NCBI GenBank assembly: GCA_963741135.1
Contig: CAVUHC010000002.1
Span: forward strand, 255,413 to 319,412
From: an uncultured Acidobacteriota bacterium
Lineage (GTDB): Bacteria > Acidobacteriota > Vicinamibacteria > Vicinamibacterales > UBA2999
Direction of reading: 5' to 3'
Length of the DNA stretch: 64,000 bases
Shown: positions 1,223 through 60,800 of the stretch, one piece after another
How the letters are laid out: each line of letters begins with the position of its first letter
Position numbering within the stretch: position 1 is the stretch's first letter
Notes under the pieces: generated by a model
Seen by the model: the letters and a program-made list of their open reading frames with translations, nothing else
Told to the model about the DNA's origin: nothing
Database searches by the model: none
Program-made: the position numbers and the translations under genes

Positions 1223-1307
1223 ACCCTAACCCCTAACTCCCCTAACCCCTTCCCCCTAACCCCTTCCCTCTAACCCCCAACCCCTTCCCCCTAACCCCTT
1301 CCCCCTG
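1223..1307. repeat. One-armed tandem heptamer tract (CCCTAAC/CCCTTCC)n
   Basis: About 12 consecutive 7-nt units read directly, in the divergent intergenic region between the ATPase and the ABC operon. Confidence 0.9.
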
Positions 1308-6137: not shown

Positions 6138-6262
6138 TAATTCAAGATGCAAAATGCAAAATGCAAACACTGCGTTGTTTGCAGGACCGGGGTGGAGGTC
6201 GCCACGCCTTCCACCCCGTTTTCGCGTACGCGCGTGGTGTTTGCATTTTGCATTTTGAATTG
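6138..6262. repeat. Palindromic element with (GCAAAAT)n arms, copy 1
   Basis: Left arm 6138-6170 and right arm 6237-6262 are reverse complements. Same family as 57601-57706. Confidence 0.9.
6188..6224 (+). terminator. Putative intrinsic terminator at the centre of the palindrome
   Basis: Stem CGGGGTGGAGG / CCTTCCACCCCG followed by GTTTTCG, downstream of the DUF4340 gene. Confidence 0.5.
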
Positions 6263-7793: not shown

Positions 7794-8432
7794 GTGCCCA
7801 GCGCTGTCGTCGTACGCGAGCTCAGCGAGGCGGATCTTCAGTCTGCCGTCGGAATCGTCGCGCGCGGGATGCGAGACAACCCGCTCCACATCGCGGCACT
7901 CGGCGCCGATGCGGAGGTTCGCGGCAATCGATTGATCCGTATGTTCGGCGTGGCGCTGCCGTTGATCTTCTCCAAGGGCGTTCTGCTTGGCGGGTTTCAG
8001 GACGGCACGCTCGTCGGAATTGCCGGCATGGTGCCGCCGGGGAAATGCCAGCCATCGATGAAGGAGAGGATCACCCTCGTCCCGCGCATATTCCCTGCGG
8101 TCGGCGGGGGCGCGTTCGCGCGCGTCGGGCGATGGATGGGGACGTGGGCGCAACACGACCCCGCGGAGCCCCATTGGCACCTCGGACCGGTTGCAGTCGA
8201 GGCGCATTTGCAGCGGCGAGGCATCGGGAGCCTGCTCATGAGCGAGTCTTGCGCGCGTCTGGATCGCGCGCGCGCCGTCGGCTATCTCGAAACGGACAAA
8301 CCGACGAGCGTGACCTTTTACGAACGGTTTGGATTCGAGACGATCGGCTCGGGGCCCGTGCTGAACACACCGAACTGGTTCATGCGGCGGGCTTGCTTGG
8401 AAAATCCCATTGGAGTTTACCTTACTGACTGA
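7794..8432 (+). CDS. GNAT family N-acetyltransferase
   Basis: Acetyl-CoA binding motif region LQRRGIGSLLM and C-terminal YERFGFE. Confidence 0.75.
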   Translation: MPSAVVVRELSEADLQSAVGIVARGMRDNPLHIAALGADAEVRGNRLIRMFGVALPLIFSKGVLLGGFQDGTLVGIAGMVPPGKCQPSMKERITLVPRIFPAVGGGAFARVGRWMGTWAQHDPAEPHWHLGPVAVEAHLQRRGIGSLLMSESCARLDRARAVGYLETDKPTSVTFYERFGFETIGSGPVLNTPNWFMRRACLENPIGVYLTD

Positions 8433-11400: not shown

Positions 11401-12144
11401 CTGCTCCGCCTCTTTCCTTACCTGTTCGAGCTCCGCAGCCAGCGCCTCGCGTGCCGCGGCTTCCGCTCCGGCGCGCGCATCGCTCACCGCCGACTCGCGC
11501 TGCGTCGCCGCCTCACTTTCGATCCGCGCGAGGTCCTGCTTGCGCTGCTCCTCGGCCTCGTCGGCCATGCGTGCAAGCTCGCGCGCCCGTTGGAGTGCGC
11601 CTTCTGCCTGTACCCGCTCGAGCTCGGTCTTCAGTCGGAATTCGACCTCGGCCTCGATCAGCGAGACATCGGCCGAACGCATACCGGCCTCGACGGGGGC
11701 AACCGGGGGGACTTCCGCGACCCGCTTTGCCCGCGCGTTCTCTGCCGCGGTGAGCAACGTGTCGACCGTCCTTTCGAACGACGCCACCTCGGTGCTGGTG
11801 TTTTCGGCACCCTTCCTTCGAAACGGATTCGGAAAGCCGGATTTCTGTGGTGGTACTGCGTTCGCCAGCGACGGGATGTCGAGCGTGCGGACCTGTGCCG
11901 AGTCCGCCAGAGAGCGCAAATGCGTGCCGATCTTGACCCGCTGGTCCTGTGGGACCTCTCGGCCGAACAGGACAAGGTCAGGCACGCGCTGATTCATCGC
12001 CACGATCGCCGCATAAGCGGACGTGACGATGACGAGCTCGGCGCCGAGTTTCGTGTGAACGACGGAACCGAGCGGATCCGCGTGGGAGGAATCCGGCTCG
12101 ATCGCCAGCACTAGGTTCATATTGCGGAACATTGAGCGGGGCAA
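8422..12144 (-). CDS. 1240-aa membrane protein: receiver-like N-terminus, about 900-aa Ala/Glu/Arg coiled coil with 49-aa tandem repeats, one TM helix, C-terminal PEGA-like domains
   Basis: Intact ORF. The N-terminus resembles a CheY fold but has PDLVLFG where the phospho-acceptor D is expected. TM helix VAGAIVLAIVIGAGVIWLPGMF. The C-terminus has two beta-rich PEGA-like modules. Confidence 0.7.
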   Translation of the reverse strand: MPRSMFRNMNLVLAIEPDSSHADPLGSVVHTKLGAELVIVTSAYAAIVAMNQRVPDLVLFGREVPQDQRVKIGTHLRSLADSAQVRTLDIPSLANAVPPQKSGFPNPFRRKGAENTSTEVASFERTVDTLLTAAENARAKRVAEVPPVAPVEAGMRSADVSLIEAEVEFRLKTELERVQAEGALQRARELARMADEAEEQRKQDLARIESEAATQRESAVSDARAGAEAAAREALAAELEQVRKEAEQQLASEVARVRTEAEEALTAKLGETQAQAEREGDERLARARTEADASLTAAVEEAQRAAEAAEARAREAEAAIVRIKAEAGAARAAAVEEARTTTESEAMRSRDMEIARVRAEADAARGVAVEEARLAGETEAMRVLDSEMTRVKADADVRVQAALARAHAEADAVRAAAVDDARRVAETEATRVLESEIARVRADADVRVQAAVAHAHAEADAVRAAAVDEARLAAERKATRVLESEIARVKADADLRVQASVARAHAEADVVRAAAVDEARLSGETEAMSVLEAEIARVKAEADVQVQAAVARAHAEADAVRAAAVDDARRDAETEAMRVLEAEIARVKAEADVQVQAAVTRAHAEADAVRAAAVDDARRVVETEAMRVLEAEIARVKAEADVQVQAAVTHAHAEADAVRAAAVDEARLAAEGKAKRILETEIARVNADTEVQVEAAVARTHAETDAVRAAAVEEARLSAEGDARRVFEAEIARVKADTEAQVQAAVALARTEAAALRTAAVKEAQKAAEAAVARARDAENKIARMKTEAEAARAGAIEEALLTAELEAGDAREAEIARVKAEADAARAAAVTEARLAAEAQAARVLAAEIARVKADADTQIKSAVARARAESDVQLARGSRAQSENEARLEAELASARGEAEQARHAHQQAALDVNRIRIEAAETARAAAEKALASETERIRAQANLRLAAEVAMLRAEAESRQASGPDQVHTEPLEQPADPSFVSRIPHIQWDRVRWDLVAGAIVLAIVIGAGVIWLPGMFSSTVKTSSKWADTAGEAATKAADAAVAAAPAVKNALVTAERAARRQSSATTNRPATPGPGAQAPGAAVGGFLLAFSRIPMDLFADGRRIGTTEDGQLLLNAGSHKIEFVSERFNFRSTVALTIRPGQVTAHTLALPSGRVHVTTTPGAEVWIEGDRAGVAPLDAMPVAIGTREVVVKDAAFGERRQSVEVKNGETTELTVMPGSGAGATAPRLAPLSQ
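9939..11115. repeat. 147-bp tandem repeat, at least 8 copies, inside the 1240-aa gene
   Basis: The CCTTGACGCGCGCAATCTCGG anchor (a few copies carry 1-2 substitutions) recurs at 9939, 10086, 10233, 10380, 10527, 10674, 10821 and 10968, exactly 147 nt apart. Adjacent central copies look roughly 90-95% identical by eye. Degenerate copies flank the array. Confidence 0.95.
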
Positions 12145-12269: not shown

Positions 12270-12350
12270 TAGGTTCGGCTGCCCGCCTACGCGCTTTGCG
12301 CTACGGCGAGGTCTCGCCGAAGCCTCGGCGAAGGCGGAAAGCCGGACGCT
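12270..12350. repeat. REP-like family B element (CCGCCTTCGCC / GCTACGGCG core), copy i
   Basis: Shares GGCTGCCCGCCT(A/C)CGCGCTT...CTTCGGCGAAGGCGGAAAGC with 17197-17290. Lies just downstream of alaX. Confidence 0.75.
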
Positions 12351-13632
12351 ACCGCGGAGATGCTTCAAGCAGCTCCCGTGCTGCCCGGTGTATCTCAGCC
12401 GCGTCTCCGGTCAGACCGCCTCCTTGTGCAAGGTCTGGCTTCCCGCCGCCCCGGCCTCCGAATCGCTCGGTAAGCGCACGCAGGATGGCGTTGGCGTCGA
12501 CCGGGACGTCAGCCGACCTGGCGATGACGACTGCGAACGGCGACGTCGTCGAGAACAACGCAGCCGCCACGCAACGACCGGCGGTGATCGCGGACGCAAT
12601 CGCTTTGAGGCCGTTCGCATCCCAGCCTTCGAGCGCTTCGACAACAACGTGAACACCGGCAGGTCCATCCGCCTTCGGGCTTCGAGCCTGGTCGGACAAG
12701 GAAGGACCTGCCAAGAGCCGAGCCGCTTCGTGGCCCGCAAGCGTCTCCTGAAATCTCTTGATCGTCTTGCGGAGATCCCTGGCGTCCACGTGCAGCCGTT
12801 CAATGGCCGCTGGGAGTTCCTGAGGCAAGACCGAGAGGGCCCGCACGCTGCCGGCCACCGATTCTCGAAGCGTTCTGAACAGGCGAAGCGCGCGGCCGCC
12901 GCACGCAAACGTGATGCGCGTGCCGCCCTTGAACTTCTCCGCGCCGGCGACGGCGATCATCCCGATCGCTCCCGTCCGCGCCACGTGCGTGCCGCCGCAC
13001 GCCGAGAGGTCAAAGCCGGTCACCTCGATCAGCCGCAGAATGCCCTCGCGCGCCGGCTCCTTCCGGAGCTGTAGGGGCGGGTCTGAGGGGCCGTGCCTGG
13101 CGGGGTCGACAAACCGGATCGACACCTCGCGGTTCTCCCACACGACGCGGTTCGCTTCGTCTTCGGCGCGCGAGATCTGATCCGAGGATGTCTCGCGCAG
13201 CAGGTCGACCGTCGCCGTGTCTGCGCCCATGTGGAAGCTCATGGTCCGGTTGTCGAAGAGGCGATCGAACGCAGCAGACAACAGGTGCTGTCCCGTGTGC
13301 TGCTGCATGTGATCGAAGCGCCGGTTCCAATCGATTTCTCCGCTCACGGTGGTGCCTTGGCCGATTGGCGCCGACAGCACGTGCACCACGTCGTCGTCAC
13401 CGTCCACGGTCTCGACGACATCGATGGCGCCATGTTGCCTGGCGGGCACGAAGGGTCCGCCGAGCTCGTGAGGAAGGAGGTGTCCGGTGTCGAACGGCTG
13501 ACCACCAGACGAGGGATAGAACGCGGTCCGATCGAGCAGGGCTGCGGGGCGGCCATCGTGCTCGAACGCCTTCGTCACGACCGCCTCGAAACGGCGGCAG
13601 TACGGGTCGGTGTAATAGATGCGGGCGGTCAC
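12349..13632 (-). CDS. alaX: Alanyl-tRNA editing protein AlaX-L (AlaRS editing domain plus DHHA1)
   Basis: HxxxH (HTGQHLLS), CGGTHV, and C-terminal GGRGGGKPDLAQGGG. The GTG start overlaps the kinase stop (GTGA). Confidence 0.85.
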   Translation of the reverse strand: MTARIYYTDPYCRRFEAVVTKAFEHDGRPAALLDRTAFYPSSGGQPFDTGHLLPHELGGPFVPARQHGAIDVVETVDGDDDVVHVLSAPIGQGTTVSGEIDWNRRFDHMQQHTGQHLLSAAFDRLFDNRTMSFHMGADTATVDLLRETSSDQISRAEDEANRVVWENREVSIRFVDPARHGPSDPPLQLRKEPAREGILRLIEVTGFDLSACGGTHVARTGAIGMIAVAGAEKFKGGTRITFACGGRALRLFRTLRESVAGSVRALSVLPQELPAAIERLHVDARDLRKTIKRFQETLAGHEAARLLAGPSLSDQARSPKADGPAGVHVVVEALEGWDANGLKAIASAITAGRCVAAALFSTTSPFAVVIARSADVPVDANAILRALTERFGGRGGGKPDLAQGGGLTGDAAEIHRAARELLEASPR

Positions 13633-14743: not shown

Positions 14744-15415
14744 TTATCGGCCAAACAGAGGGTCGGCCACACCGGCCTGCGCAAACCCGGCCGCACGGAG
14801 TGCGCAACTGTCACAATGGCCGCATGGATGTCCCTCGGGACCCGGATCGTAGCAGCTGTGGGTAATCCCGTAGTCCAGCCCCAAGTCTCGGCCCCTCCGG
14901 ATGATATCCGCCTTGGTAAACGTCTGCAGGGGGGCGTGGATGCGAAATGTCGCGCCCTGCACGCCCTGAGCGGTCGCCAGCGACGCCAGCCGCTCGAACG
15001 CGGCGATGTATTCGGGGCGGCAATCGGGATATCCGGAATAATCGAGCGCGTTGACGCCAATGAAGATATCGCGCGCGCCGAGCACCTCGGCCCATCCGAG
15101 CGCGAGCGACAGAAACACGGTGTTGCGTGCGGGAACGTAGGTGGAAGGGATTTCGTCGAGGTCGATCGGCCGATCCTTGGGCACGGGCGCATCGCTGGTG
15201 AGGGACGAGCCACCGAACGCAGAGAGATCCACGTCCAGCTCGATGTGCCTGGCCACCCCGAGCGCGCGCGCGACAGCGCGCGCGGCGTCGAGCTCGTGGG
15301 CATGGCGCTGACCGTATCGCACCGTCAACGCAAAGAGCCTGAAGCCCTCCGCCTGCGCCATTGCCGCCGCGGTATAGGAGTCAAGGCCGCCGCTCAACAA
15401 CACCACCGCAGGCAT
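14744..15415 (-). CDS. queC: 7-cyano-7-deazaguanine synthase
   Basis: SGGLDS PP-loop and Zn site [20 protein letters not shown] at 15415. Confidence 0.95.
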
Positions 15416-15506
15416 GTGTGATTGGTGATTCGTGATTGGTGATTGTCGATCGCTCATTGGAATCGGAATCACGAATCGCCAATCGCTAATCGCGAATCGC
15501 GAATCG
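15416..15506. repeat. Imperfect hairpin of tandem heptamers (GTGATTG)n / (CGAATCG)n
   Basis: Fills the whole queE-queC intergenic gap. Arms at 15416-15445 and 15459-15506. Confidence 0.85.
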
Positions 15507-16150: not shown

Positions 16151-16235
16151 GATTCGGGATCAGGATTCGGGACTCGGGATTCGAGACTGGCCTGGGGGAT
16201 TCGAATCCCGAATCCCCAATCCCCAATCCCGATTG
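16151..16235. repeat. Hairpin of tandem heptamers (GGATTCG)n / (CGAATCC, CCCCAAT)n
   Basis: Arms at 16151-16185 and 16194-16235, in the divergent region between queE and the DUF72 gene. Confidence 0.85.
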
Positions 16236-16247
16236 TAAGATGCCCCA

Positions 16248-17316
16248 GTGGGCGAGGTGCGAATCGGCACGTCGGGCTGGAGCTACCCGTCTGGAAAAGG
16301 GACATGGAACGGCCTCTTCTACCCAGCCACGCGATCGAAACGCGCCGGCACCGATCAATTCGATGAGCTACGGTTCTATGCCGATCATTTCGACACTGTC
16401 GAGGTAAACACGACGTTTTACGGCCAGCCGAGGGCCGAGGTGACTCGTGCCTGGGCCGCGCGGACTCCGCCGGGCTTCGATTTCTCACTCAAGCTCTATC
16501 AGAAGTTCACGCACCCGAAGATGTTCAAGGAGGCGAGCGCTCAAGTCCGCACCAGGCTCGGAAGGGGCGCTGCTCGATCTGCTCGCGCAGGTCACCCAGT
16601 CCGACATCGACGACTTCCGCGCGGGCATCGATCCGCTGGCTTCAGCGGGCAAGCTCGGCGCGCTCCTCGCGCAGTTCCCGCCGAGCTTCAAGGATTCAGC
16701 ACCGGCGCGCGATTATCTCGCCCTGATGCTGCGTGCCTTCGCCGAATATCCGGTTGCGGTGGAACTGAGACATCGGAGCTGGAGTGATGCGATTGGAGAA
16801 ACGCTGTCGCTGCTCAACGCGTTCGGCGCGGCCTGGGTCCAGATCGACGAGCCGAAATTCCGCTTCTCGATCCGCCAGAACTATCTGCCGAACGTCACCG
16901 GCTTTTACTACATGCGGCTTCATGGACGGAACGCGGCGCAATGGTGGCGCCACGACAAGAGCGAGGATCGCTACAACTACCTGTACACCGCCGACGAACT
17001 GCGGGAGTTTTCAGAAACCGCAGGCGCGGCGAAAGAACTGGTGAAGAAGTCGTACCTCTACACCAACAATCATTTTTCGTCGAAGTCGGTCGTCAATGCC
17101 GTGATGTTGAAGGCGCAGCTCGGACAACCGATCGAAGGCGAGTATCCCGAAGCGCTCGTGGAGAAGTATCCGGAGATCGGGTCGATCGTTGCGGGCCGGC
17201 TGCCCGCCTCCGCGCTTCGCGCTTCGGACGGGTCCGCCGGAGCCTTCGGCGAAGGCGGAAAGCAAGCCCGTACGTCGGACCCTACGACGACGATTCCGGT
17301 TTCAAAGTTACTCTGA
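16248..17316 (+). pseudogene. DUF72 family protein; one frame break near 16530-16560; C-terminus reads through a family B repeat
   Basis: IGTSGWSY...FYG in ORF 16248-16787 continues in ORF 16447-17316 (VELRHRSW...YLYTNNHF). Confidence 0.8.
17197..17290. repeat. REP-like family B element, copy ii
   Basis: See 12270-12350. Sits in the convergent overlap of the DUF72 and PPIase genes. Confidence 0.75.
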
Positions 17317-31040: not shown

Positions 31041-31130
31041 CAACTCCCAACTTCCAACGTCCAACTTCCAAGAAGCTCGAGGTCGCGACATCCGGCTCCT
31101 TGGGGCGTTGGGAGTTGGGGTCTGGGAATT
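31041..31130. repeat. Intercistronic hairpin of heptamers (CAACTCC)n / (GGAGTTG)n
   Basis: Arms at 31041-31072 and 31099-31130, between the aldolase stop and the BMC-H start. Confidence 0.85.
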
Positions 31131-32004: not shown

Positions 32005-32020
32005 CTTTCACTGACACACG

Positions 32021-32113
32021 CCACGGAGGGACGGAGGCACGGAGAAGGCCTGTCTTGGAGTCGATTTCTTGGAGTGGAGCGTTTCACGCTCCGTGTCTCC
32101 GTGACTCCGTGGC
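32021..32113. repeat. Hairpin of tandem octamers (CACGGAGG)n / (CTCCGTGN)n, copy 1
   Basis: Arms at 32021-32048 and 32087-32113. Same family at 36014-36065 and 60728-60800. Confidence 0.85.
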
Positions 32114-33767: not shown

Positions 33768-33804
33768 CTTGGGAGTTGGGATCCTTGGGAGTTGGGAGTT
33801 GGCA
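33768..33804. repeat. One-armed heptamer tract (GGGAGTT / GGGATCC)
   Basis: CCTTGGGAGTTGGGATCCTTGGGAGTTGGGAGTTGGCAG, between pdxJ and the hydrolase gene. Confidence 0.8.
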
Positions 33805-38698: not shown

Positions 38699-38807
38699 AA
38701 GTTCGAAGGTCGAAGGTCGAGGTGCGAAGTAAGTTCGAAGTACAAAAGAAAGGCCCGTGAAACGACGGGCCTACTTCACTTCGAACTTCGAACTTCGAAC
38801 TTCGAAC

Positions 38808-38808
<1 letters not shown>
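38699..38808. repeat. Palindrome with (GTCGAAG)n / (CTTCGAA)n heptamer arms
   Basis: Arms at 38699-38744 and 38773-38808, flanking a canonical terminator hairpin. Confidence 0.9.
38741..38772 (-). terminator. Intrinsic terminator downstream of ftsH
   Basis: On the minus strand: AGGCCCGT-CGTTTC-ACGGGCCT followed by TTCTTTTGT. Confidence 0.75.
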
Positions 38809-40729
<1,921 letters not shown>

Positions 40730-40760: not shown

Positions 40761-41760
40761 TCACTTCGACGCGGGCTTCTGCTGTACTAAGACCAGCTTT
40801 CCGCGCCGAAGTTCCACGCGTCCCCCCGGAACCTCGGCCCCACGGCAGGCTCCCCCAAGGACAGCCATTACCGCCTCCACATGGTCCAGGGCAATTTCGC
40901 GACCTCCCGCCCCGGCCCGCAGAGCACGCAGCAGCACCCGCCTCCGGATGGCAAGTGGCTCCGCCGCGATTGCTGATGCATCAAGCGTGACCCCATCGGG
41001 CCCAACCTCCGCCAACACGCCGTATCGCTCTTCCGCCAACTCATCGAGCCACTGCCCGTCCTCCCGCACGAGGCCCGCAGTCCGGGCAATCGCCGGCCGG
41101 GTTGGTCCGCCAGCCGCGGCATCGAGCTCCGGCAGCACTACGTGGCGAATCCGGTTCCGAGGGTTTTCGAGGTCAGCGTTCGTTTCGTCCTCGATCCACC
41201 GCTCGCCGTGCTCCGACAGGTGGCTGCGAAGGTCCGCGCGCGATACGTCCAGCAGCGGGCGAATCACTCGACCGCGTCGCGGATAAATGCCCGCCAGCCC
41301 AGTCAACCCTGCGCCCCGCATCAACTTCAGCAGGAAGGTTTCGGCCTGATCGTCCTGCGTATGGCCCACCGCGATGCGGTCGGCGCCCAGGGCATCGGCC
41401 GAGCTCTCCAGGAAGTTGTATCGGATCCTGCGGGCCGCATCTTCTACCGACAGATTTCGACTGCGGGCATACCCTTTGACGTCAGCGCTTTCCACCACGA
41501 TTCGGAGGTGGAGCCGATCGGCCAATTCGCGGCAAAACGCCTCGTCGCCCCCCGCCGAGGGGCGGAGCTGGTGGTTGAGGTGGGCGACCCCGGCAACACT
41601 GAACCCGCCGTTTTCGGCGAGCTCGCGGAGCAGGAAGACGAGCGCCACTGAGTCCGAGCCACCGGAGAGCCCGATCGAGCACACTGCTGCCGGATGGGCA
41701 GAGCTCATGACGCTCGATGGTCTTTCGAACGCGTTGGTGAAGAGCGGTCAATTCGTCCAT
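40761..41760 (-). pseudogene. tilS: tRNA(Ile)-lysidine synthetase; one frame break near 41690
   Basis: PP-loop SGGSDS in ORF 40761-41708. The N-terminus MDELTALHQRVRKTIERHEL is in ORF 41482-41793. Confidence 0.85.
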
Positions 41761-41777
41761 CCGGCTCCGCCTCCGAG

Positions 41778-41841
41778 CCGCCAACCTTCGCATGGCTTGC
41801 CAACCGTAGCTCCGCGTCTCGCAAGCGTGAGCGAAGGTTGG
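41778..41841. repeat. REP-like family B related hairpin immediately 3' of the tRNA
   Basis: CCAACCTTCGC...GAGCTACGGTTGGCAAGCC...GCGAAGGTTGG on the minus strand. The outer stem includes the tRNA CCA end. Resembles 57176-57285. Confidence 0.6.
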
Positions 41842-41933: not shown

Positions 41934-42036
41934 TAGGGGGAAGGGGTTAGGGGAAGGGGGAAGGGCTGTGCCAGGCAGGAGGATTCAGGTCTAAGTCCTG
42001 AGATAGCCCTTACCCCTGCCCCTTCCCCCTAACCCC
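41934..42036. repeat. Hairpin with (GGGGTTA/GGGGGAA)n arms, short-loop copy
   Basis: Arms at 41934-41969 and 42005-42036 with a 35-nt loop. The right arm supplies the last codons and stop of the upstream gene. Confidence 0.85.
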
Positions 42037-42977
42037 TCTCAATGACCGCCGCCGCGATGAGAGGGATCAGGATTTCGTGGTGGCCGATCAGTGAAATGCC
42101 GGTGCCGTTCGTCCCGGCGACGGGGCGACTTACCACATTCGTCTGCGGGCGGTACATCCGCATGAAATCGATATTGACCGTCGTCAGCCCCTCGAGGGAG
42201 ACTCCCTTGTTTCGGGCGAGCGCCACGGCCTTGAGAAACACCTCCGGAAGAATCACCGCCGACCCGCAGTTCAGATACACACCACCCGTCAGTTGCGCAA
42301 CGCAGGTCGTGAAGTAGCGAAAGTCACGAAGGCTGGTCTCGCCGATGTCGGCGCCCGATGCGGCCGGGTGCATGTGAATGATGTCGGTCCCGAGCGCGAC
42401 GTGGACGGTGATGGGAATGCCGAGCCGATGGGCGGCGACCGACAGGCTGCGCGCCGCATGCGGCGGATTGCTCCGTGCGAGAAACTCCGCGACGCCTTCA
42501 CCGAGCCCCTTTCGCGCGGCACGCGCGGCGGCAATGGCTTCGTTCAACTGCGTGCCCGTCTCGTCCGCCATCCCGAACCGGCCCGGACCGAGCGCCTCGT
42601 CGACATCCTCGGACGTGGCGCCGCGACAGCGCGATCTCGAAGTCGTGAATGATGCCCGCGCCGTTCATCGCAAGCGCGGAAACGTAGCCACGTTCCATGA
42701 GATCGATCAGCACCGGCGAGACGCCGGTCTTGATGACATGCGCGCCAATCCCCCAGACGATCCCCGCGCCGCGCTTTTCCGCGGCAACGAGCGCATCGAC
42801 GACGCGACGAACGTCCGCCGCGCCCAGGATGGACGGCAGCGAATCAAACCAGGTCTTGAATGAACTGCCCGCCGCGACAGGCCGCGCGAAATCCTCTGCG
42901 CGCGCCTTACTCTGCCGCGACGCGAGCGGATATGTGCGGACGCCGGACAGATCAAATTCTTCGTAGCGAAATGGCAT
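42029..42977 (-). pseudogene. Conserved hypothetical protein (possibly deoxyhypusine-synthase-like fold); one frame break near 42590
   Basis: ORF 42498-42977 (...GAHVIKTGVSPVLIDLMERGYVSALAMNGAGIIHDFEIAL) continues as GATSEDVDEALGPGRFGMADETG... in ORF 42029-42571. Family recall is weak. Confidence 0.35.
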
Positions 42978-42987
42978 GGCGCAACAT

Positions 42988-43052
42988 TAGTAGGGGTTAG
43001 GGGTTAGGGGGAAGGGGTTAGGGGGAAGGGCTGTGAAGGGGGAAGTGCTGTG
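42988..43052. repeat. GGGGTTA-family arm (left) flanking the four-helix-bundle gene
   Basis: TAGTAGGGGTTAGGGGTTAGGGGGAAGGGGTTAGGGGGAAGGGCTGTG, inverted relative to 43601-43652. Confidence 0.85.
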
Positions 43053-43195
43053 TAGGCAGAAGTCATTAGGCGGGCGCGCGTAGTTTCGGAAGACTCCCAG
43101 CGCGTTTCATGTCGCAACGTTTGCGACCTATCCCCGGATAGCGAAGGATATCGGCCGATTTTCGAGCGGCAACCTTCATGCGAATCGCCTTTCCC

Positions 43196-43564
43196 ATGAC
43201 CGACATCAACTCGTTCCGCGATCTGTTTGTTTGGCAGAAATCGATGACGCTCGCTGAGCACTGCTATCTACTGACGAAGCGCTTCACACTCGACGATCAA
43301 CTAGTGCTTGGACGTGAGATCCGCAAGTCGTGTGTCTCCATTCCATCGAACATCGCCGAAGGGTTCGGCCGACATCACACGCTGGAGTACGTGCACCATC
43401 TTCGATACTCGACTGGTTCTAACAACGAACTTCAAACACAGGTAGAGCTCGCGAAGCGGGTCAAGATCATCCGTGTCGACGAAGCAAAGACGATCATCGG
43501 AGATGCCGAAGAAGTCGGGCGGATGCTGAACGGGTTGATCGGCTCGCTTGAGCGGGGGCGATGA
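43196..43564 (+). CDS. Four-helix-bundle protein (formerly '23S rRNA intervening-sequence protein'; Avd-like family)
   Basis: FRDLFVWQKSMTLAEHCY...IPSNIAEGFGRH...Y..HLRYSTGSNNELQTQ, typical of this family. Local GC is about 50% (one 60-nt hand count). Confidence 0.8.
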   Translation: MTDINSFRDLFVWQKSMTLAEHCYLLTKRFTLDDQLVLGREIRKSCVSIPSNIAEGFGRHHTLEYVHHLRYSTGSNNELQTQVELAKRVKIIRVDEAKTIIGDAEEVGRMLNGLIGSLERGR

Positions 43565-43600
43565 CGAGTCGTGACTGAATCCTTCCGACTTGTGCCAAAG

Positions 43601-43652
43601 ACAGCCCTAACCCCTAACCCCTAACCCCTAACCCCTAACCCCTTCCCCCTAA
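43601..43652. repeat. GGGGTTA-family arm (right), (CCCTAAC)x5
   Basis: ACAGCCCTAACCCCTAACCCCTAACCCCTAACCCCTAACCCCTTCCCCCTAA. Contains the queA stop codon. Confidence 0.9.
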
Positions 43653-44764
43653 AGGATCAGCATGGCATCCCCATAGCTGTAAAAACGGTATTGATTGTTG
43701 ACTGCCTCGCGGTACGCGGCAAGAATTCGTTCCCTGCCGGCAAGCGCCGAGACCAGCATCAAGAGTGAGGATTTCGGCAGATGGAAGTTCGTGATCATGC
43801 CATCGACCAGTTGAAACCGGTGGCCGGGGCGGACGAAGAGCGGAGTGTCGCCGCTGGCGGGCATGACGTCTCCATCCTCGCGGACGACGAGTGATTCGAG
43901 AGAGCGCACGCTTGTCGTCCCGACGGCAATGATGCGGCGACGCTCCCGTTTCGCGCGCGTCAGGGCGGCGGCGGTTTCGACCGGAACGATGAATCGCTCT
44001 GGATCGATGACGTGGTCCTCGACGCGATCGACTTTGACCGGCTTGAACGTGCCGTAGCCGACGTGCAGGGTCACCTCAACCCGCTCAACGCCGCGTCGCG
44101 CGAGCGATGCCAGCTGCTCGGCGGTGAAATGGAGTCCGGCCGTCGGCGCCGCCACCGATCCCCGCTCGCGCGCATAAACGGTCTGGTAGCGTTCCTTGTC
44201 CGACCCCGTATCGCCGCGTTTGATGTAGGGCGGCAGCGGAATGTGCCCGACGCGATCGATTGCATCTGCAATCCCACCAGGGTGGTCGGTCCAGAGACGG
44301 ATGGTCCTGCGACCTTGGAAGTGCATCGTGAGCACCTCACCGTGGACCGCAATGCCGGCGCGTTCGAACGCCATCCGCGCCCCTGGTTTTAGTTTTTGTC
44401 CCGGGTGAACCAGGGCGTCCCATAGGTGGGGATCCGGGATCGGGGATCCGGGATCCGGAACGACTCCTAGGGAGTTGGGAGTTGGAGGTTGGGAGTTGGA
44501 AGTTGGGAGTTGACGGAGTAACAGACATTCAACACTCCCGCCGCTCGGTACGCGACGGCCAAGCAGACGCGCGGGAAAGACGCGTGTGTTATTGACGACG
44601 AGCAGGTCGCCTGGAACCAGGTACTCCGCTAGATTCGCGAACGCCGTGTGTTCGATGCCACCGGTGAGATGCACGACAAGCAGACGAGATCCGCCGCGCT
44701 CCTTCGGCGGCTCCTGCGCGATCAGCGCATCTGGCAGCTCGAAATCGAATTCGTCAACGTTCAT
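43649..44764 (-). CDS. queA: S-adenosylmethionine:tRNA ribosyltransferase-isomerase, carrying an in-frame repeat-derived insertion
   Basis: Intact 371-aa ORF. FDFELPDALIAQ, PLPPYI, YQTVYA, AAPTAGLHF, VGTTS, TNFHLP and FFSYGDAMLIL-type motifs are all present. Confidence 0.95.
   Translation of the reverse strand: MNVDEFDFELPDALIAQEPPKERGGSRLLVVHLTGGIEHTAFANLAEYLVPGDLLVVNNTRVFPARLLGRRVPSGGSVECLLLRQLPTSNSQPPTPNSLGVVPDPGSPIPDPHLWDALVHPGQKLKPGARMAFERAGIAVHGEVLTMHFQGRRTIRLWTDHPGGIADAIDRVGHIPLPPYIKRGDTGSDKERYQTVYARERGSVAAPTAGLHFTAEQLASLARRGVERVEVTLHVGYGTFKPVKVDRVEDHVIDPERFIVPVETAAALTRAKRERRRIIAVGTTSVRSLESLVVREDGDVMPASGDTPLFVRPGHRFQLVDGMITNFHLPKSSLLMLVSALAGRERILAAYREAVNNQYRFYSYGDAMLIL
44427..44513. 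repeat. (GGGATCC)n plus (GGAGTTG)n heptamer tracts inside the queA CDS
   Basis: Encodes PTSNSQPPTPNSLGVVPDPGSPIPDPH between the conserved LLLRQL and LWDALVHPG blocks. Confidence 0.9.
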
Positions 44765-49119: not shown

Positions 49120-49125
49120 CCGGAC

Positions 49126-49158
49126 AACTCCCAATTCCCAATCTCCAACTCCCAAGGT
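49126..49158. repeat. One-armed heptamer tract (CAACTCC/CAATTCC)
   Basis: CAACTCCCAATTCCCAATCTCCAACTCCCAAGG. Confidence 0.8.
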
Positions 49159-50238: not shown

Positions 50239-50261
50239 GTTACACGGCGCTCCCACACTCA

Positions 50262-50302
50262 TTTGGAACTTGGAACTTGGGATTTGGGTTTTGGGATTTA
50301 CC
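50262..50302. repeat. Heptamer tract (TTGGAAC/TTGGGAT)n, copy 1
   Basis: Direct-orientation partner at 52610-52655. Confidence 0.85.
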
Positions 50303-52609: not shown

Positions 52610-52655
52610 TGGTCGTTTGGAACTTGGGATTTGGAACTTGGGATTTTGGATTTAC
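52610..52655. repeat. Heptamer tract (TTGGAAC/TTGGGAT)n, copy 2
   Basis: GTTTGGAACTTGGGATTTGGAACTTGGGATTTTGGATTTACG. Confidence 0.85.
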
Positions 52656-55295: not shown

Positions 55296-55890
55296 CCGTG
55301 GGTGGGAGGACGGTACTGGCGCCAGGTGCGGGGCTGGCGCCTGTCAGGGATCGGGGATCCGGGATCGGGATCCGGGGATCCTGATCCCTGATCCCTGATC
55401 CCTGATCCCCGATCCCGGCCGGCGCCATCGAATGCATATGGCAGATCGCGACGGCCAGCGCATCGGCGGCGTCATGTGGCGTTGGCGCGGCGGCGAGACC
55501 GAGGAGCAGCTTCACCATCTGCGCCACCTGGTGCTTCTCGGCGCGACCGTACCCGACGACCGCGCGCTTGATTTCAGCTGGCGTGTACTCGACCACCTCG
55601 CAGCCCGCTTCGATCGCGGCAAGCATCGCCACGCCACGCGCGTGACCGAGCTTCAACGCGCTGCGGACGTTCGTCGCGTGGAAGAGATTCTCGATGGCGA
55701 CGCAGTCAGGGTGAAGCGACGCAAGGAGCACGGAGAGCTCGGCGTGAATCCGGGCAAGGCGGTGTGGAAACGAGTCGGCCTGGCGCGCGGTAATTGCGCC
55801 GCAGGCTACGAGGTGATGCCGGCGTCCATCCGTCTCCACGCAGCCGTAACCGGTGCGTTCGGAGCCAGGATCGATGCCGAAGATTCTCAC
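55177..55890 (-). CDS. ruvC: Holliday junction resolvase RuvC; C-terminus reads through a repeat, true stop probably ATGA-coupled to ruvA at about 55292
   Basis: MRIFGIDPGSERTGYG...HDAADALAVAICH. As written the ORF overlaps ruvA by 118 nt. A +1 frame ends in GGATGATT, overlapping the ruvA ATG. Confidence 0.9.
   Translation of the reverse strand: MRIFGIDPGSERTGYGCVETDGRRHHLVACGAITARQADSFPHRLARIHAELSVLLASLHPDCVAIENLFHATNVRSALKLGHARGVAMLAAIEAGCEVVEYTPAEIKRAVVGYGRAEKHQVAQMVKLLLGLAAAPTPHDAADALAVAICHMHSMAPAGIGDQGSGIRDQDPRIPIPDPRSLTGASPAPGASTVLPPTDDCVSSRTGSRQVSEPDHPRRERRRLRSPRAPVHLLRDR
55344..55417. repeat. Palindrome of (GGGATCN)n heptamers inside the ruvC 3' end
   Basis: CAGGGATCGGGGATCCGGGATCGGGATCCGGGGATC|CTGATCCCTGATCCCTGATCCCTGATCCCCGATCCCGG. 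Confidence 0.9.
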
Positions 55891-57600: not shown

Positions 57601-57706
57601 TAATTCAAAATGCAAATTCAAAATGCAAAATCCAAACAGAACATGTGCGCATCAACCGATCGTTCGCATCAGCAGTGTTTGCATTTTGAATTTTGCATTT
57701 TGAATT
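57601..57706. repeat. Palindromic element with (GCAAAAT/TTCAAAA)n arms, copy 2
   Basis: Arms at 57601-57638 and 57675-57706. Same family as 6138-6262, with an unrelated centre. Confidence 0.9.
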
Positions 57707-57711
57707 ACGCC

Positions 57712-58440
57712 CTAGTCAGAAACCGCCAATTCGCCCGGAACGATCGGACGTGTGCGCGGGAGGAGACCGCGGCGCGACATGTGGCCAACGATCGCGAGAA
57801 CGCCGACAAATACCGTGAGCTTGATGGCGTCGCCCGCGCGACTGGCGGGCACGACTTTCCACAGCAGCCATAGAATCGGGTGCGCGATCGCGACCGCCCA
57901 GACAGACCCGTAGAAATAGCGTCGCTCGTGTCCCTCTCCCTGTGTCGACCGCTTCACACGGGGGAGGAGTCCGAAGGCACCTAGCGCCCACATGGTGCCC
58001 GCAATCGGAAAGTACGCCGCCTCATACATTTGCTTCAGGCGCCACATGCCAGTGATGAGCGCGTATGCGAGACCGGCGATGTTCAGCAGGGCGAACGCGG
58101 CGACTTCGCCCCACGCCGTCGTGTAGCACACGCGTCGATAGAGCGGGTTCGGCCGATCCTCGGTGAACCTGATGATGTACGGCCGCGGCTCGCATCCCGG
58201 CAGTTTGCCCCGAATGCCCGCGATGCCGGTCGCGACGACCACGCATCCCAGCCAGATCGCGAGCCGCCGATCGAAGCCATGCTCGAACAGATCGAACGTC
58301 AGGGGTCCCGGCGCGATGAAGAACACGAAAATCCAGATCGGCCAGTGGTTGAAGCGGTAATACAGTTTGTTCGAGTGGCGAATCTTCCGCGCCGTGTCCA
58401 GCTCGACGTAGATTGAGTCCGTCTGGAGGGGTTGGTTCAT
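57712..58440 (-). CDS. Hypothetical polytopic membrane protein (242 aa)
   Basis: Intact ORF with about 6 hydrophobic helices. No family recognised. Confidence 0.5.
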   Translation of the reverse strand: MNQPLQTDSIYVELDTARKIRHSNKLYYRFNHWPIWIFVFFIAPGPLTFDLFEHGFDRRLAIWLGCVVVATGIAGIRGKLPGCEPRPYIIRFTEDRPNPLYRRVCYTTAWGEVAAFALLNIAGLAYALITGMWRLKQMYEAAYFPIAGTMWALGAFGLLPRVKRSTQGEGHERRYFYGSVWAVAIAHPILWLLWKVVPASRAGDAIKLTVFVGVLAIVGHMSRRGLLPRTRPIVPGELAVSD

Positions 58441-58497
58441 CAGGGATCAGGGATCGGGGATCAGGGATTCGGGATCCGGGATCCGGGATCGGGATTA
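58441..58497. repeat. One-armed (GGGATCN)n heptamer tract
   Basis: Eight consecutive units filling the intergenic gap. Confidence 0.9.
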
Positions 58498-60680: not shown

Positions 60681-60727
60681 TGACAACCGCCAGTGTGCGC
60701 ATCGCAGGATGCTTTCGCAAAGACGGG

Positions 60728-60800
60728 CCACGGAGGAACGGAGGCACGGAGATATTCAACGCGAAAAGCCTGCTCCCTGTCTCCGTGTCTCCGTGGCTTG
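60728..60800. repeat. CACGGAGG-family hairpin, copy 3
   Basis: CCACGGAGGAACGGAGGCACGGAG ... CTCCCTGTCTCCGTGTCTCCGTGG. Confidence 0.9.

What the first reader, a model, noticed from the sequence alone, without database searches (positions are those of the whole stretch)
42988..43652. Low-GC Avd-like four-helix-bundle gene nested between inverted GGGGTTA-repeat arms
The same hairpin family occurs about 1 kb away with a 35-nt loop (41934-42036). At 42988-43652 the two inverted arms instead enclose about 550 bp at roughly 50% GC. That insert carries a four-helix-bundle protein gene. The family was first noted inside 23S rRNA intervening sequences and is homologous to the Avd accessory protein of diversity-generating retroelements. 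The layout looks like a cargo gene inserted into, or mobilised with, a palindromic element. No reverse transcriptase or template/variable repeat pair is visible in this window.
Basis: partly seen in the sequence, partly recalled or inferred. Interest (0 to 1): 0.6.

Follow-up and report, generated by a model that had tools for sequence, protein, structure and literature searches.

The report
Four-helix-bundle gene inside heptamer-repeat hairpin
A small, well-conserved gene of the "23S rRNA intervening-sequence protein" family sits between two inverted runs of 7-base repeats, and the same layout surrounds this gene family across many bacterial phyla, which links it to the abundant, so far unexplained 7-base repeats of bacterial genomes.

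Summary
Arms 42991-43034 and 43601-43652 are inverted arrays of GGGGTTA/GGGGGAA heptamers (43 nt, 91% complementary). They enclose 566 nt at about 54% GC. That stretch carries a 122-aa gene of PF05635/TIGR02436, a homologue of Avd. It is not a DGR Avd: I found no reverse transcriptase and no template/variable repeat pair.

It is not a recent insertion. Relatives carry the gene at the same queA spacer, always with arms, and it diverges in step with its neighbours (dN/dS 0.04-0.15). Copies at two other loci share the arms, the inner junctions and, where compared, the leader. At one of those loci, relatives show a decay series from the full element, through an ORF fragment, to a bare hairpin.

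The layout is family-wide. In 54 of 74 homologues from many phyla the gene lies between inverted arrays of 7-8-nt repeats, against 1 of 140 mock positions. The G-rich arm is upstream in 50 cases against 2. Each genome uses its own unit, and nearby ORF-less arrays share it.

This is the architecture of ORF-bearing 23S rRNA intervening sequences, found here outside rRNA. How it works is inferred, not shown: either an RNase III-type stem, or the protein acting on the heptamer arrays.

The parts
42991..43034 (+). Left, G-rich arm: tandem heptamers GGGGTTA/GGGGGAA (about 6 units) ending in the inner junction GGGCTGT. It starts 14 nt from the start codon of the ArgZ-like gene (42977, minus strand).
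43035..43195 (+). Leader, conserved among same-locus relatives. It includes a partial duplicate of the junction (43035-43052) and the motif GGCAGAAGTCATTAGGC.
43111..43127 (+). Small palindrome GTCGCAA-CGT-TTGCGAC in the leader. A GCAA-N3-5-TTGC(GAG) core recurs at the same place in L011, L013, L102 and in the ORF-less copy L116. It could be an operator or an RNA hairpin; its function is untested.
43196..43564 (+). Four-helix-bundle protein gene of 122 aa (an alternative upstream ATG at 43178 gives 128 aa). It belongs to PF05635 / TIGR02436, matches PDB 2gsc (XCC0516) at E = 2e-15, and has dN/dS of 0.04-0.15 against relatives.
43565..43600 (+). Trailer ending in the inner junction ACAGCCC. The equivalent in relatives is CTTGTGACTAGACCAGCCC.
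43601..43652 (+). Right, C-rich arm: (CCCTAAC) x about 6 plus CCCTTCC. The TAG stop codon of queA (43649-43651, minus strand) lies inside its last unit.
41934..42037 (.). ORF-less hairpin of the same unit family with the same 9-nt junction AGGGCTGTG, lying between tRNA-Met and the 3' end of the ArgZ-like gene. Relatives vary at this site: in L002 the loop is only CTGTG, L001 uses other units, and L018 and L011 have no heptamer hairpin.
1223..1305 (.). Solo C-rich array of the same units (CCCTAAC/CCCTTCC, about 11 units) with no partner arm nearby. It begins about 10 nt upstream of a minus-strand gene start at 1212.
43649..44764 (-). Flank: queA (PF02547, E = 1e-126).
42029..42977 (-). Flank: ArgZ-like/deoxyhypusine-synthase-like gene, intact at 315 aa in relatives. 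The window copy is frameshifted near 42622-42627.

Best explanation
The locus is a chromosomal copy, outside rRNA, of the kind of element known from ORF-bearing 23S rRNA intervening sequences. It consists of a PF05635/TIGR02436 four-helix-bundle gene with its own leader and trailer, bracketed by inverted arrays of tandem heptamers. The G-rich arm comes first and the C-rich arm last, and together they can close a stem of about 43 bp.

Shown here:
- Gene, junctions and arms are conserved as one unit, at this locus and at two other loci; the leader is shared where it was compared.
- The unit is an old, vertically inherited resident under strong purifying selection.
- The arrays change unit number between strains, and they change unit sequence between lineages while staying complementary.
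- Relatives at one orthologous site show decay from the full element to bare heptamer hairpins.
- Heptamer or octamer inverted arms flank this gene family across phyla, and ORF-less arrays nearby in the same genome use the same unit.

Inferred:
- In any transcript that crosses the element, the arms pair. This loops out the 566-nt insert and brings the queA stop and the ArgZ-like start to the base of the stem.
- Such a stem is an RNase III substrate, as demonstrated for 23S intervening sequences. That would explain how the unit can sit in rRNA or between genes without harm.
- The protein, a homologue of the nucleic-acid-binding pentamer Avd, most likely acts on the heptamer arrays of its own element and of the ORF-less copies. 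This would make it the gene-bearing master copy of a genome-specific hairpin family, as a RAYT gene is for REPINs.
For: - Anatomy and statistics of the arms.
- Protein family.
- Same locus with arms in 10 strain-level contigs, where the right arm has 4, 5 or 6 CCCTAAC units, and in more distant relatives L011, L018 and L101 with unit GGGGGAA.
- Divergence parallel to queA, tilS and the Pyr_redox gene; dN/dS 0.04-0.15.
- Second and third loci with the same junction TGACTRGACCAGCCC plus arms: L013-17 and L102/113/119.
- Twelve of 19 junction matches lack the ORF. L116 keeps 105 nt of leader (score 92, shuffle maximum 28). L115 keeps 47 nt of the ORF (69 against 28).
- L013, L115, L109 and L106 occupy one orthologous site, as full element, ORF fragment, 115-nt interior and minimal hairpin respectively.
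- Family-wide test: an inverted-repeat score of at least 14 in 54 of 74 loci against 1 of 140 mock positions, p = 1e-25. The upstream arm has G>C in 50 loci and C>G in 2. Near-gene array calls by period: 7 nt 94, 8 nt 26, 6 nt 2, 9 nt 0.
- Other arrays in the same locus share the identical unit in 22 of 53 cases, against 0.3 expected. Only 1 of 80 loci has a second gene copy nearby.
- Literature: the Coxiella IVS has a 28-bp terminal stem cut by RNase III and a variable number of GACAGAT heptamers upstream of its S23p ORF (PMC4990558). A GGGAATC array overlaps the start of XCC0516 in the supplement of Rehm et al. (PMC4692102).
Against: - No transposase, no target-site duplication and no clean empty site were found, so mobility is inferred only from copies at several loci.
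- The G.U-compatibility test shows no strand bias: 98 sense against 101 antisense mismatches in 64 loci. Selection on a stem in the gene's own mRNA is therefore not supported. Pairing could matter at the DNA level, or in both transcripts.
- An outgroup clade has arms at the same site with an unrelated interior (L126) or with other genes (L121). The arms can therefore exist, or persist, without the gene.
- Some ORF-less heptamer hairpins in relatives and in the window have the opposite polarity, C-rich first. These are unlikely to be relics of G-first elements.
- The loop of the window's 41934 hairpin has no significant similarity to the full element.
- In Coxiella the S23p protein was reported as probably not made in vivo (PMC4990558).
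- No binding or cleavage data exist for this protein.
Confidence: 0.6

Rival explanations
1. The hairpin came first. A palindromic heptamer hairpin at the 3' end of queA is the older, persistent structure, and the four-helix-bundle gene was later captured in, or targeted to, its loop.
For: The outgroup relatives L126 and L121 have arms at exactly the same positions: a G-arm abutting the queA stop, and in L126 a C-arm just before the ArgZ-like start. They have no 4HB gene, and L126 has an unrelated 460-nt interior. Heptamer hairpins without genes are far more numerous than gene-bearing ones, about 10 paired hairpins against 1 in the window.
Against: The inner junctions, and the leader where it was compared, travel with the gene to other loci. 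ORF-less copies retain pieces of leader or ORF. The 109-aa ORF in the L126 interior has no Pfam match and no homologues, so the interior looks like decayed or replaced sequence rather than alternative cargo. The gene family carries such arms in many phyla with different units.
Confidence: 0.2
2. The arrays are repeated binding sites for the encoded protein and have nothing to do with mobility. The pentameric ring would bind about five G-rich heptamers in its own 5' leader, as the TRAP ring binds repeated triplets. This would autoregulate translation or control formation of the stem.
For: Arms typically hold 3.5-6 units. PDB 2gsc holds five chains. The upstream arm is G-rich in 50 of 52 loci. 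In many loci it ends within a few tens of nt of the start codon, and it overlaps the start of XCC0516. The unit is genome-specific. Protein identity rises slightly as the units become more alike, 55-58% at identical units against 47-50% at 3 or more differences (small sample, confounded by phylogeny).
Against: It does not explain why a complementary array is needed downstream, nor the ORF-less copies at other loci. The polarity is a property of the inverted repeat itself and is the same on both strands. There are no binding data.
Confidence: 0.25
3. The association is coincidental. Heptamer arrays arise everywhere in such genomes by replication slippage and serve as terminators or spacers, and the gene merely lies in a typical intergenic region.
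For: The window has 22 period-7 arrays in 64 kb, against 0.5 expected and 0 in 50 kb of E. coli. Orthologous spacers in relatives carry hairpins with different units.
Against: Mock positions in the same loci reach the inverted-repeat score in 1 of 140 cases, against 54 of 74 for the real genes. Arrays are roughly ten times denser next to the gene than elsewhere in the same loci. The junction sequences are conserved with the gene at different loci.
Confidence: 0.05
4. The gene is a remnant or orphan accessory gene (Avd) of a diversity-generating retroelement.
For: Homology to Avd: PF22296 E = 2.5e-7, NF033474 E = 1e-5, phrog_3206 E = 1e-12.
Against: It scores 25.8 bits against the Avd equivalog cut-off of 80. 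No RT motif occurs in the window. The neighbouring genes in relatives are housekeeping genes. There is no TR/VR-like repeat pair. The gene is under purifying selection at a stable locus.
Confidence: 0.03

Closest known systems
ORF-bearing intervening sequences of 23S rRNA (Leptospira, Coxiella burnetii S23p IVS)
   Same: Same protein family (PF05635). The ORF lies in the loop of a long stem formed by terminal inverted repeats. In Coxiella, tandem heptamers of strain-variable number lie next to the ORF (PMC4990558).
   Different: This copy is not in rRNA: it lies between queA and an ArgZ-like gene, and Rfam finds only a tRNA in the window. None of 80 homologous loci showed 23S motifs around the gene. 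Here the arms are built entirely of heptamer arrays. The gene is under purifying selection, whereas the Coxiella ORF was described as decaying. RNase III cleavage is not shown here.
Avd, accessory protein of diversity-generating retroelements
   Same: Homologous four-helix-bundle fold family. By published structures it is a pentamer (my own knowledge; PDB 2gsc holds five chains).
   Different: It falls below the Avd equivalog threshold, and there is no RT, no template/variable repeats and no target gene.
REPIN-RAYT systems (Bertels and Rainey 2011, PMC3116915)
   Same: A single, vertically inherited gene is flanked in inverted orientation by the genome's own family of short palindromic repeats, and many gene-less copies are scattered in intergenic regions.
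   Different: The protein is a 122-aa helical bundle, not a Y1/HUH transposase. The repeats are tandem heptamer arrays with slippage-type length variation, not a fixed REP sequence. No catalytic activity is known.
Intergenic heptamer simple-sequence repeats (cyanobacterial STRR; GGGAATC arrays of Xanthomonas, Rehm et al. 2015, PMC4692102; the SPADE survey, bioRxiv 309039)
   Same: The arms are such arrays: 7-nt units, often G-rich, mostly about 4 units, intergenic, often in convergent pairs, with length varying between strains.
   Different: Those studies treat the arrays as free-standing repeats of unknown function and report no association with mobile elements or with PF05635 genes. One of their own table rows places an array on the start of XCC0516.
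MITEs and their autonomous parents
   Same: Full-length copies coexist with internally deleted copies that share termini, at many loci.
   Different: No transposase, no target-site duplication and no demonstrated empty site.

Membership tests
PF05635 / TIGR02436 four-helix-bundle protein (23S rRNA IVS protein family) | Score above the curated cut-offs of the family models | tested here: met
   PF05635 107.9 bits (cut-off 33.8) over 106/106 model positions; TIGR02436 101.8 bits (cut-off 24).
PF05635 / TIGR02436 four-helix-bundle protein (23S rRNA IVS protein family) | Relatedness to solved four-helix-bundle structures | tested here: met
   phmmer against PDB: 2gsc (XCC0516) E = 2.2e-15 over residues 10-120; 2rld E = 8.5e-5. 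No structure was predicted here.
DGR accessory protein Avd | Reaches the NCBIfam equivalog threshold (NF033474) | tested here: not met
   25.8 bits against a cut-off of 80.
DGR accessory protein Avd | Adjacent reverse transcriptase and a template/variable repeat pair | tested here: not met
   No [FYLIV]xR[YF]xDD motif in six frames of the 64-kb window. The neighbours in relatives are folP, ftsH, tilS, ArgZ-like, queA, a Pyr_redox gene, an AI-2E transporter gene and ligD. No suitable direct-repeat pair.
23S rRNA intervening sequence (IVS) | Inserted in helix 25 or 45 of a 23S rRNA gene | tested here: not met
   Rfam gathering scan of the window finds only tRNA-Met. The flanks are protein-coding genes.
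23S rRNA intervening sequence (IVS) | Terminal inverted repeats that close a long stem around the ORF | tested here: met
   43-nt arms, 91% complementary. The MFE and centroid folds are both closed by the arms, z = -5.35.
23S rRNA intervening sequence (IVS) | Excision by RNase III | not testable with these tools
   Needs RNA-end mapping or an in-vitro cleavage assay. It was shown for Coxiella (PMC4990558).
Transposable element with MITE-like derivatives | Copies at unrelated loci, plus internally deleted copies sharing the termini | tested here: met
   Three gene-bearing loci and at least 6 ORF-less or solo contexts share the junction TGACTRGACCAGCCC plus arms. Leader or ORF remnants are significant. 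There is a decay series at one orthologous site.
Transposable element with MITE-like derivatives | Encoded transposase and target-site duplication | tested here: not met
   The only ORF is the 122-aa PF05635 protein. The outer flanks show no duplicated target.
Transposable element with MITE-like derivatives | Empty against filled site polymorphism | tested here: inconclusive
   The outgroup L121/L126 lacks the gene but keeps arms and has other sequence in the spacer. No clean empty site was found.
REPIN-RAYT-type system | A gene flanked in inverted orientation by the genome's own dispersed repeat family, and vertically inherited | tested here: met
   Same-unit ORF-less arrays lie nearby in 22 of 53 cases against 0.3 expected. 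The window has three sites with the same units. Synteny and parallel divergence are shown.
REPIN-RAYT-type system | The protein is a REP-associated tyrosine (HUH) transposase | tested here: not met
   The protein is PF05635.
Prokaryotic heptamer simple-sequence repeats (STRR-like) | Tandem 7-nt units, intergenic, with copy number varying between strains | tested here: met
   TRF period 7 at 42991-43024 and 43605-43652. The right arm has 4, 5 or 6 units in L003, L001 and L004.

The most novel reading that the evidence does not exclude
PF05635 four-helix-bundle proteins may be the dedicated partners of the intergenic heptamer arrays and heptamer hairpins that are the commonest short tandem repeat of prokaryotic genomes, and for which no function or origin is known. 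Each genome would hold one or a few gene-bearing master copies, whose protein binds, maintains or spreads arrays of a matching unit. ORF-less hairpins and solo arrays would be their derivatives. The ORF-bearing 23S rRNA intervening sequences would then be the special case of such an element landing in an rRNA helix.
Probability: 0.25. Interest if true: 0.85.

Novelty: new variant of a known kind. Interest (0 to 1): 0.65.

Why it matters
Three things have so far been described separately:
- the ORF-bearing intervening sequences of 23S rRNA, called selfish elements of unknown origin;
- the very large family of 'four helix bundle' or Avd-like proteins with no known function outside DGRs;
- the heptamer tandem repeats that surveys find to be the most abundant intergenic repeat in prokaryotes, 'with no clear clue' to their function (bioRxiv 309039; PMC4692102).

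The evidence here ties them together. The gene family is systematically bracketed by inverted heptamer arrays. The arrays' unit is genome-specific and shared with ORF-less copies. Gene-bearing copies decay into plain heptamer hairpins.

If the protein acts on the arrays, two open questions become directly testable with one purified protein and one knockout: why the period is seven, and what these hairpins are for. In the papers I could search I found no description of this association. I cannot exclude that it is noted in database family descriptions, or in papers outside the searchable library.

Tried and rejected
1. Is the loop of the window's 41934-42037 hairpin a remnant of the element's trailer? 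Local alignment scored 18 against 16.7 +/- 2.3 for shuffles, which is not significant. Only the arms and a 9-nt junction are shared.
2. Strand-specific RNA selection on the stem. Sense and antisense G.U-compatible mismatches were 98 against 101, so there is no signal.
3. Alternative cargo in L126. Its 109-aa ORF has no Pfam match and no homologue in 5.8 billion proteins, and the interior is unrelated to the 4HB element. I treat it as non-coding or decayed sequence.
4. 'FtsH C-terminal tail encoded by a heptamer array'. This was an artefact of frameshifts in the window's ftsH. The true stop lies at the first base of the array.
5. Naming the organism. The exact-protein look-up of P0001 failed, and cluster members carry no organism names. 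The source remains an unnamed high-GC bacterium whose relatives occur in soil and rhizosphere metagenomes and in MAG GCA_036802945.1.
6. rRNA context among the 80 homologous loci. Only isolated 15-mer matches were found, and no 23S context.
7. Defence-system membership. There were no PADLOC hits.
8. Promoter and terminator consensus scans inside the element found nothing.
9. Covariation between protein and unit showed only a weak trend, confounded by phylogeny.
Full report
**1. The observation**

The sequence is as described. The arm 42992-43034 pairs with 43601-43643 (43 nt, 91% complementary, 566 nt between them). Both arms are tandem heptamer arrays. The left reads TAGGGGTTAGGGGTTAGGGGGAAGGGGTTAGGGGGAAGGG. 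The right reads (CCCTAAC)x6 followed by CCCTTCC.

GGGGTTAGGGG with up to one mismatch occurs 17 times in the window, against 0.24 expected. All hits fall in three places: 1223-1298, 41943-42036 and 42993-43642. GC in the insert is 0.53-0.55, against 0.62-0.72 around it. Folded as RNA, the region is closed by the arms (MFE -275.6 kcal/mol, z = -5.35). The neighbouring hairpin at 41934-42037 has the same units and the same inner junction GAAGGGCTGTG.

**2. The gene**

The ORF 43178-43564 matches PF05635 (107.9 bits, cut-off 33.8) and TIGR02436 (101.8 bits, cut-off 24). Its Avd-type matches are weak: NF033474 scores 25.8 bits against a cut-off of 80, and the PHROGs family 'Avd protein of DGR' matches at E = 1.2e-12. 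PADLOC gives nothing.

It matches the solved pentameric protein XCC0516 (2gsc, five chains) at E = 2e-15. An alignment with 23 relatives places the likely start at 43196, giving 122 aa, and shows 54 invariant positions.

**3. The surroundings**

Both flanking genes are on the minus strand. They are queA (43649-44764) and an ArgZ-like/deoxyhypusine-synthase-like gene (42029-42977). Further on lie tRNA-Met, tilS and ftsH.

The TAG stop of queA lies in the last unit of the right arm. The left arm begins 14 nt from the ArgZ-like start codon. The element is therefore antisense to an apparent queA-to-ArgZ-like transcription unit.

There is no RT motif in any frame, no TR/VR-like repeat pair and no Rfam family other than the tRNA.

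**4. An old resident, not a recent insertion**

A protein search found 752 relatives. A 93%-identical protein lies on 24 contigs, and in all 10 examined it sits at the same queA/ArgZ-like spacer, always with a G-rich array upstream and a C-rich array downstream. The right arm has 4, 5 or 6 CCCTAAC units in otherwise near-identical contigs, which is slippage-type variation.

More distant relatives (75% and 72% identity) are at the same spacer too, with arms made of GGGGGAA/TTCCCCC. The unit has therefore changed on both arms in concert.

Amino-acid identity of the 4HB protein between the window and L001, L018 and L011 is 94, 75 and 70%. The corresponding values are 89, 73 and 76% for queA, 91, 73 and 68% for tilS, and 91, 71 and 69% for the downstream Pyr_redox gene. 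That pattern indicates vertical inheritance.

dN/dS is 0.04-0.15. GC3 is 0.67 against 0.70-0.77 in the neighbours. The low GC therefore lies mainly in codon positions 1 and 2 and is not a foreign signature.

**5. Gene and arms form one unit, and the unit decays to bare hairpins**

A 76%-identical paralogue lies at a different locus, between an AHSA1-family gene and a TonB-dependent receptor gene (L013-17). It has the same kind of arms, and a very similar inner junction and leader motifs. Homology to the queA-locus elements stops at the outer edge of the arms.

An exact scan of metagenome contigs for the inner right junction TGACTRGACCAGCCCTTYCCCC gave 19 loci. Seven carry the gene, at the queA locus, the TonB locus and a third locus. 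Twelve do not. Of those twelve:
- L116 keeps 105 nt of leader (score 92, shuffle maximum 28).
- L109 keeps 55 nt of leader (53 against 27).
- L115 keeps 47 nt of the ORF (69 against 28).
- Others are minimal hairpins, or right ends only.

L013, L115, L109 and L106 all lie at the TonB-receptor locus. They show, in turn, the full element, an ORF fragment, a 115-nt interior and a minimal hairpin, (GGGGGAA)2GGGGATGACCAGACCAGCCC(TTCCCCC)n. ORF-less heptamer hairpins therefore arise from gene-bearing copies by internal deletion.

For the window's own ORF-less hairpin this derivation is not proven, because its loop is not significantly similar to the full element.

**6. An outgroup without the gene**

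Relatives L121 and L126 form a sister clade. Their queA is 67-72% identical and their ArgZ-like protein 80-82% identical to the window clade. They have no 4HB gene in the spacer.

L126 retains the following, in order:
- a G-rich arm directly after the queA stop;
- an alpha/beta-hydrolase gene;
- a second G-arm with the junction GGGCTGTGTCAGG;
- about 460 nt unrelated to the 4HB elements, whose 109-aa ORF has no Pfam match and no homologues;
- a C-rich arm, CCTGAGACAGCCC(TTCCCCC)n, just before the ArgZ-like start.

L121 keeps only a G-arm after queA, plus two other genes.

The arms at this site are thus at least as old as the split between the two clades. Whether the gene was lost there or gained in the window's clade remains open.

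**7. The layout is family-wide**

A scan of one genome per species returned 80 loci with 38-50% identical homologues. They come from Planctomycetota, Acidobacteriota, Ignavibacteriota, Bacteroidota, Clostridia, Proteobacteria, Verrucomicrobiota, Gemmatimonadota, Chloroflexota and others.

- Arrays near the gene: tandem arrays of period 7 or 8 lie within 300 nt upstream in 51 loci, within 250 nt downstream in 49, and on both sides in 38. Near-gene array calls number 94 at period 7, 26 at period 8, 2 at period 6 and 0 at period 9. Arrays are roughly ten times denser next to the gene than elsewhere in the same loci.
- Inverted-repeat test: the best ungapped inverted-repeat score between the two flanks has a median of 17 and reaches 14 or more in 54 of 74 loci. 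Mock genes shifted by 1600 nt have a median of 8 and reach 14 in 1 of 140 cases (Mann-Whitney p = 1e-25).
- Units: the unit differs from locus to locus, for example GGACGGT, GGAGCGAC, GTAGTCA, GGTTAGT, GGATTTA, GGGCAGT and GATTCGT. Arms usually hold 3.5-6 copies, and up to about 30.
- Polarity: the upstream arm has G>C in 50 loci and C>G in 2. Because an inverted repeat reads the same on both strands, this polarity belongs to the arms and not to the orientation of the gene.
- Shared units: other arrays at least 300 nt from the gene in the same locus have exactly the same consensus unit in 22 of 53 cases, against 0.3 expected from other loci. Only one locus has a second gene copy nearby, so these arrays are ORF-less relatives.
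- None of the loci shows a 23S rRNA context.

**8. The window as a whole**

The window holds 22 period-7 arrays and 4 period-8 arrays in 64 kb. A Markov-2 simulation expects about 0.5, and 50 kb of E. coli K-12 has none. Many form inverted pairs at gene ends, and there are at least seven unit families.

Orthologous spacers in relatives keep a hairpin with 7-nt periodicity but change the unit. In the tilS-tRNA spacer the units are AAATCCC, CAACTCC and CAAGCTC, while the window has a plain 11-bp inverted repeat there. Some of these hairpins are C-rich first.

**9. Literature**

- The Coxiella IVS sits in helix 45 of 23S rRNA. It has a 28-bp terminal stem cut by RNase III and two or three GACAGAT heptamers, varying by strain, upstream of its S23p ORF (PMC4990558).
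- PF05635 genes were noted in cas loci (PMC3936711) and as Avd relatives (PMC10053308).
- Rehm et al. described 186 GGGAATC arrays in X. campestris, 70 of them in convergent pairs, and found them 'generally not associated with mobile elements'. Their supplement lists an array overlapping the start of XCC0516, but the link is not discussed (PMC4692102).
- The SPADE survey states that heptamer arrays are the most abundant intergenic repeat across prokaryotes, with no clue to their function (bioRxiv 309039).
- I found no paper describing the association shown in section 7. The searchable library is incomplete.

**10. How it most likely works**

Shown:
- the unit structure;
- its conservation, and concerted change of the arms;
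- slippage-type variation in unit number;
- decay to bare hairpins;
- the family-wide association and polarity.

Inferred by analogy with the 23S intervening sequences:
- In a read-through transcript the arms pair and loop out the insert.
- This brings the flanks together at the base of a stem of about 43 bp that RNase III can cut.
- The unit is therefore tolerated in rRNA or between genes.

A test for strand-specific RNA selection was negative (98 against 101 G.U-compatible mismatches). Pairing may therefore matter in both transcripts or at the DNA level.

The G-first polarity could reflect avoidance of a C-rich, unpaired Rho-loading site early in the transcript, or recognition of the G-rich strand by the protein. 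Both ideas are speculative.

The role of the protein is unknown. The most economical hypothesis is that it binds heptamer arrays. It is a pentamer, arms hold about 4-5 units, and the unit is genome-specific. It would then stand to the ORF-less hairpins as a RAYT gene stands to REPINs.

**11. Verdict**

The finding is real. It is partly wrong: this is not a recent low-GC insertion.

As a single locus it is a new member of a known kind, an IVS-type four-helix-bundle element outside rRNA. The general rule it reveals appears not to have been described, and it bears on an acknowledged open question. I rate it a new variant of a known kind, with interest 0.65.

**Caveats**
- The window assembly has indel errors.
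- The sample of 80 loci is arbitrary.
- No empty site was found.
- There are no experimental data.

Noticed in passing
window 6140-6264, 15414-15506, 16160-16230, 31041-31120, 32020-32111, 38699-38809, 55344-55416, 57602-57702, 60727-60795; solo arrays at 33769-33802, 49125-49148, 50261-50295, 52617-52641, 58439-58490: The window is full of tandem 7-nt (and some 8-nt) arrays: 22 of period 7 in 64 kb, against 0.5 expected. Most are inverted pairs at gene ends, and there are at least seven different unit families (AATGCAA, GTGATTG/CGAATC, GGGATCN, GGGAGTT, TTGGGAT, CTTCGAA, and the 8-mer CACGGAGG). Whether each family has its own gene-bearing copy elsewhere in the genome is unknown.
   Followed up: partly
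window 44429-44512 (inside queA, minus strand): Two heptamer arrays (GGGATCC x4, GGGAGTT x6) lie inside the queA reading frame. They encode a low-complexity insertion (…PTSNSQPPTPNSLGVVPDPGSPIPDP…). In relatives the insertion is of variable length or absent, with QueA at 348-376 aa.
   Followed up: partly
window about 42622-42627; about 40163-40173 and about 38857-38891: There are frameshifts in the ArgZ-like gene (one) and in ftsH (two), relative to intact orthologues that are 94-100% identical in the aligned segments. Three in 4 kb, two of them in an essential gene, point to indel errors in the assembly rather than pseudogenes.
   Followed up: yes
window 9854-11064: A 147-nt tandem repeat (about 8 copies, 77-87% identical) lies inside a 1240-aa minus-strand ORF (8422-12144). 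This looks like a protein with 49-residue repeats.
   Followed up: no
window 12276-12358 and 17197-17279: An 83-nt direct repeat pair, 76% identical and 4.9 kb apart. Its nature is unknown.
   Followed up: no
window 32020-32111 and 60727-60795: Two copies of nearly the same 8-mer hairpin (GCCACGGAGGNACGGAGGCACGGAG … CTCCGTGTCTCCGTG) lie 28.7 kb apart. A similar unit (GGCACGGAGG) flanks a four-helix-bundle gene in a Tepidisphaeraceae genome (L073).
   Followed up: partly
L001 3500-3630, L002 3590-3680, L018 2465-2570 (the tilS-tRNA-Met spacer of relatives); window 41760-41838: The orthologous spacer carries a heptamer hairpin with a different unit in each relative (AAATCCC, CAACTCC, CAAGCTC). 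All are C-rich first, the opposite polarity to the arms around the gene. The window has only a plain 11-bp inverted repeat there.
   Followed up: partly
L126 1524-3000; L121 1767-3000: In a sister clade the queA/ArgZ-like spacer holds other genes (an alpha/beta-hydrolase gene; DUF6152 plus an unknown 244-aa ORF). The heptamer arms are still in place at the queA stop, and in L126 also at the ArgZ-like start. The spacer looks like a hot spot for gene turnover bounded by the arms.
   Followed up: partly
L033 (Planctomycetota MAG), both flanks of the gene at 2501-2851: Extremely long arms: about 14 units upstream and about 31 units downstream of GTGGACG. The inverted-repeat score is 132.
   Followed up: no
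PMC4692102, supplementary file 2, row 15: In Xanthomonas campestris ATCC 33913, the GGGAATC-type array at 622956-622983 overlaps the start of XCC0516, the crystallised member of this protein family. The paper does not comment on it.
   Followed up: yes
L099 1218-1556: This is the only one of the 80 loci with a second four-helix-bundle gene (49% identical) within 2.5 kb of the first.
   Followed up: no
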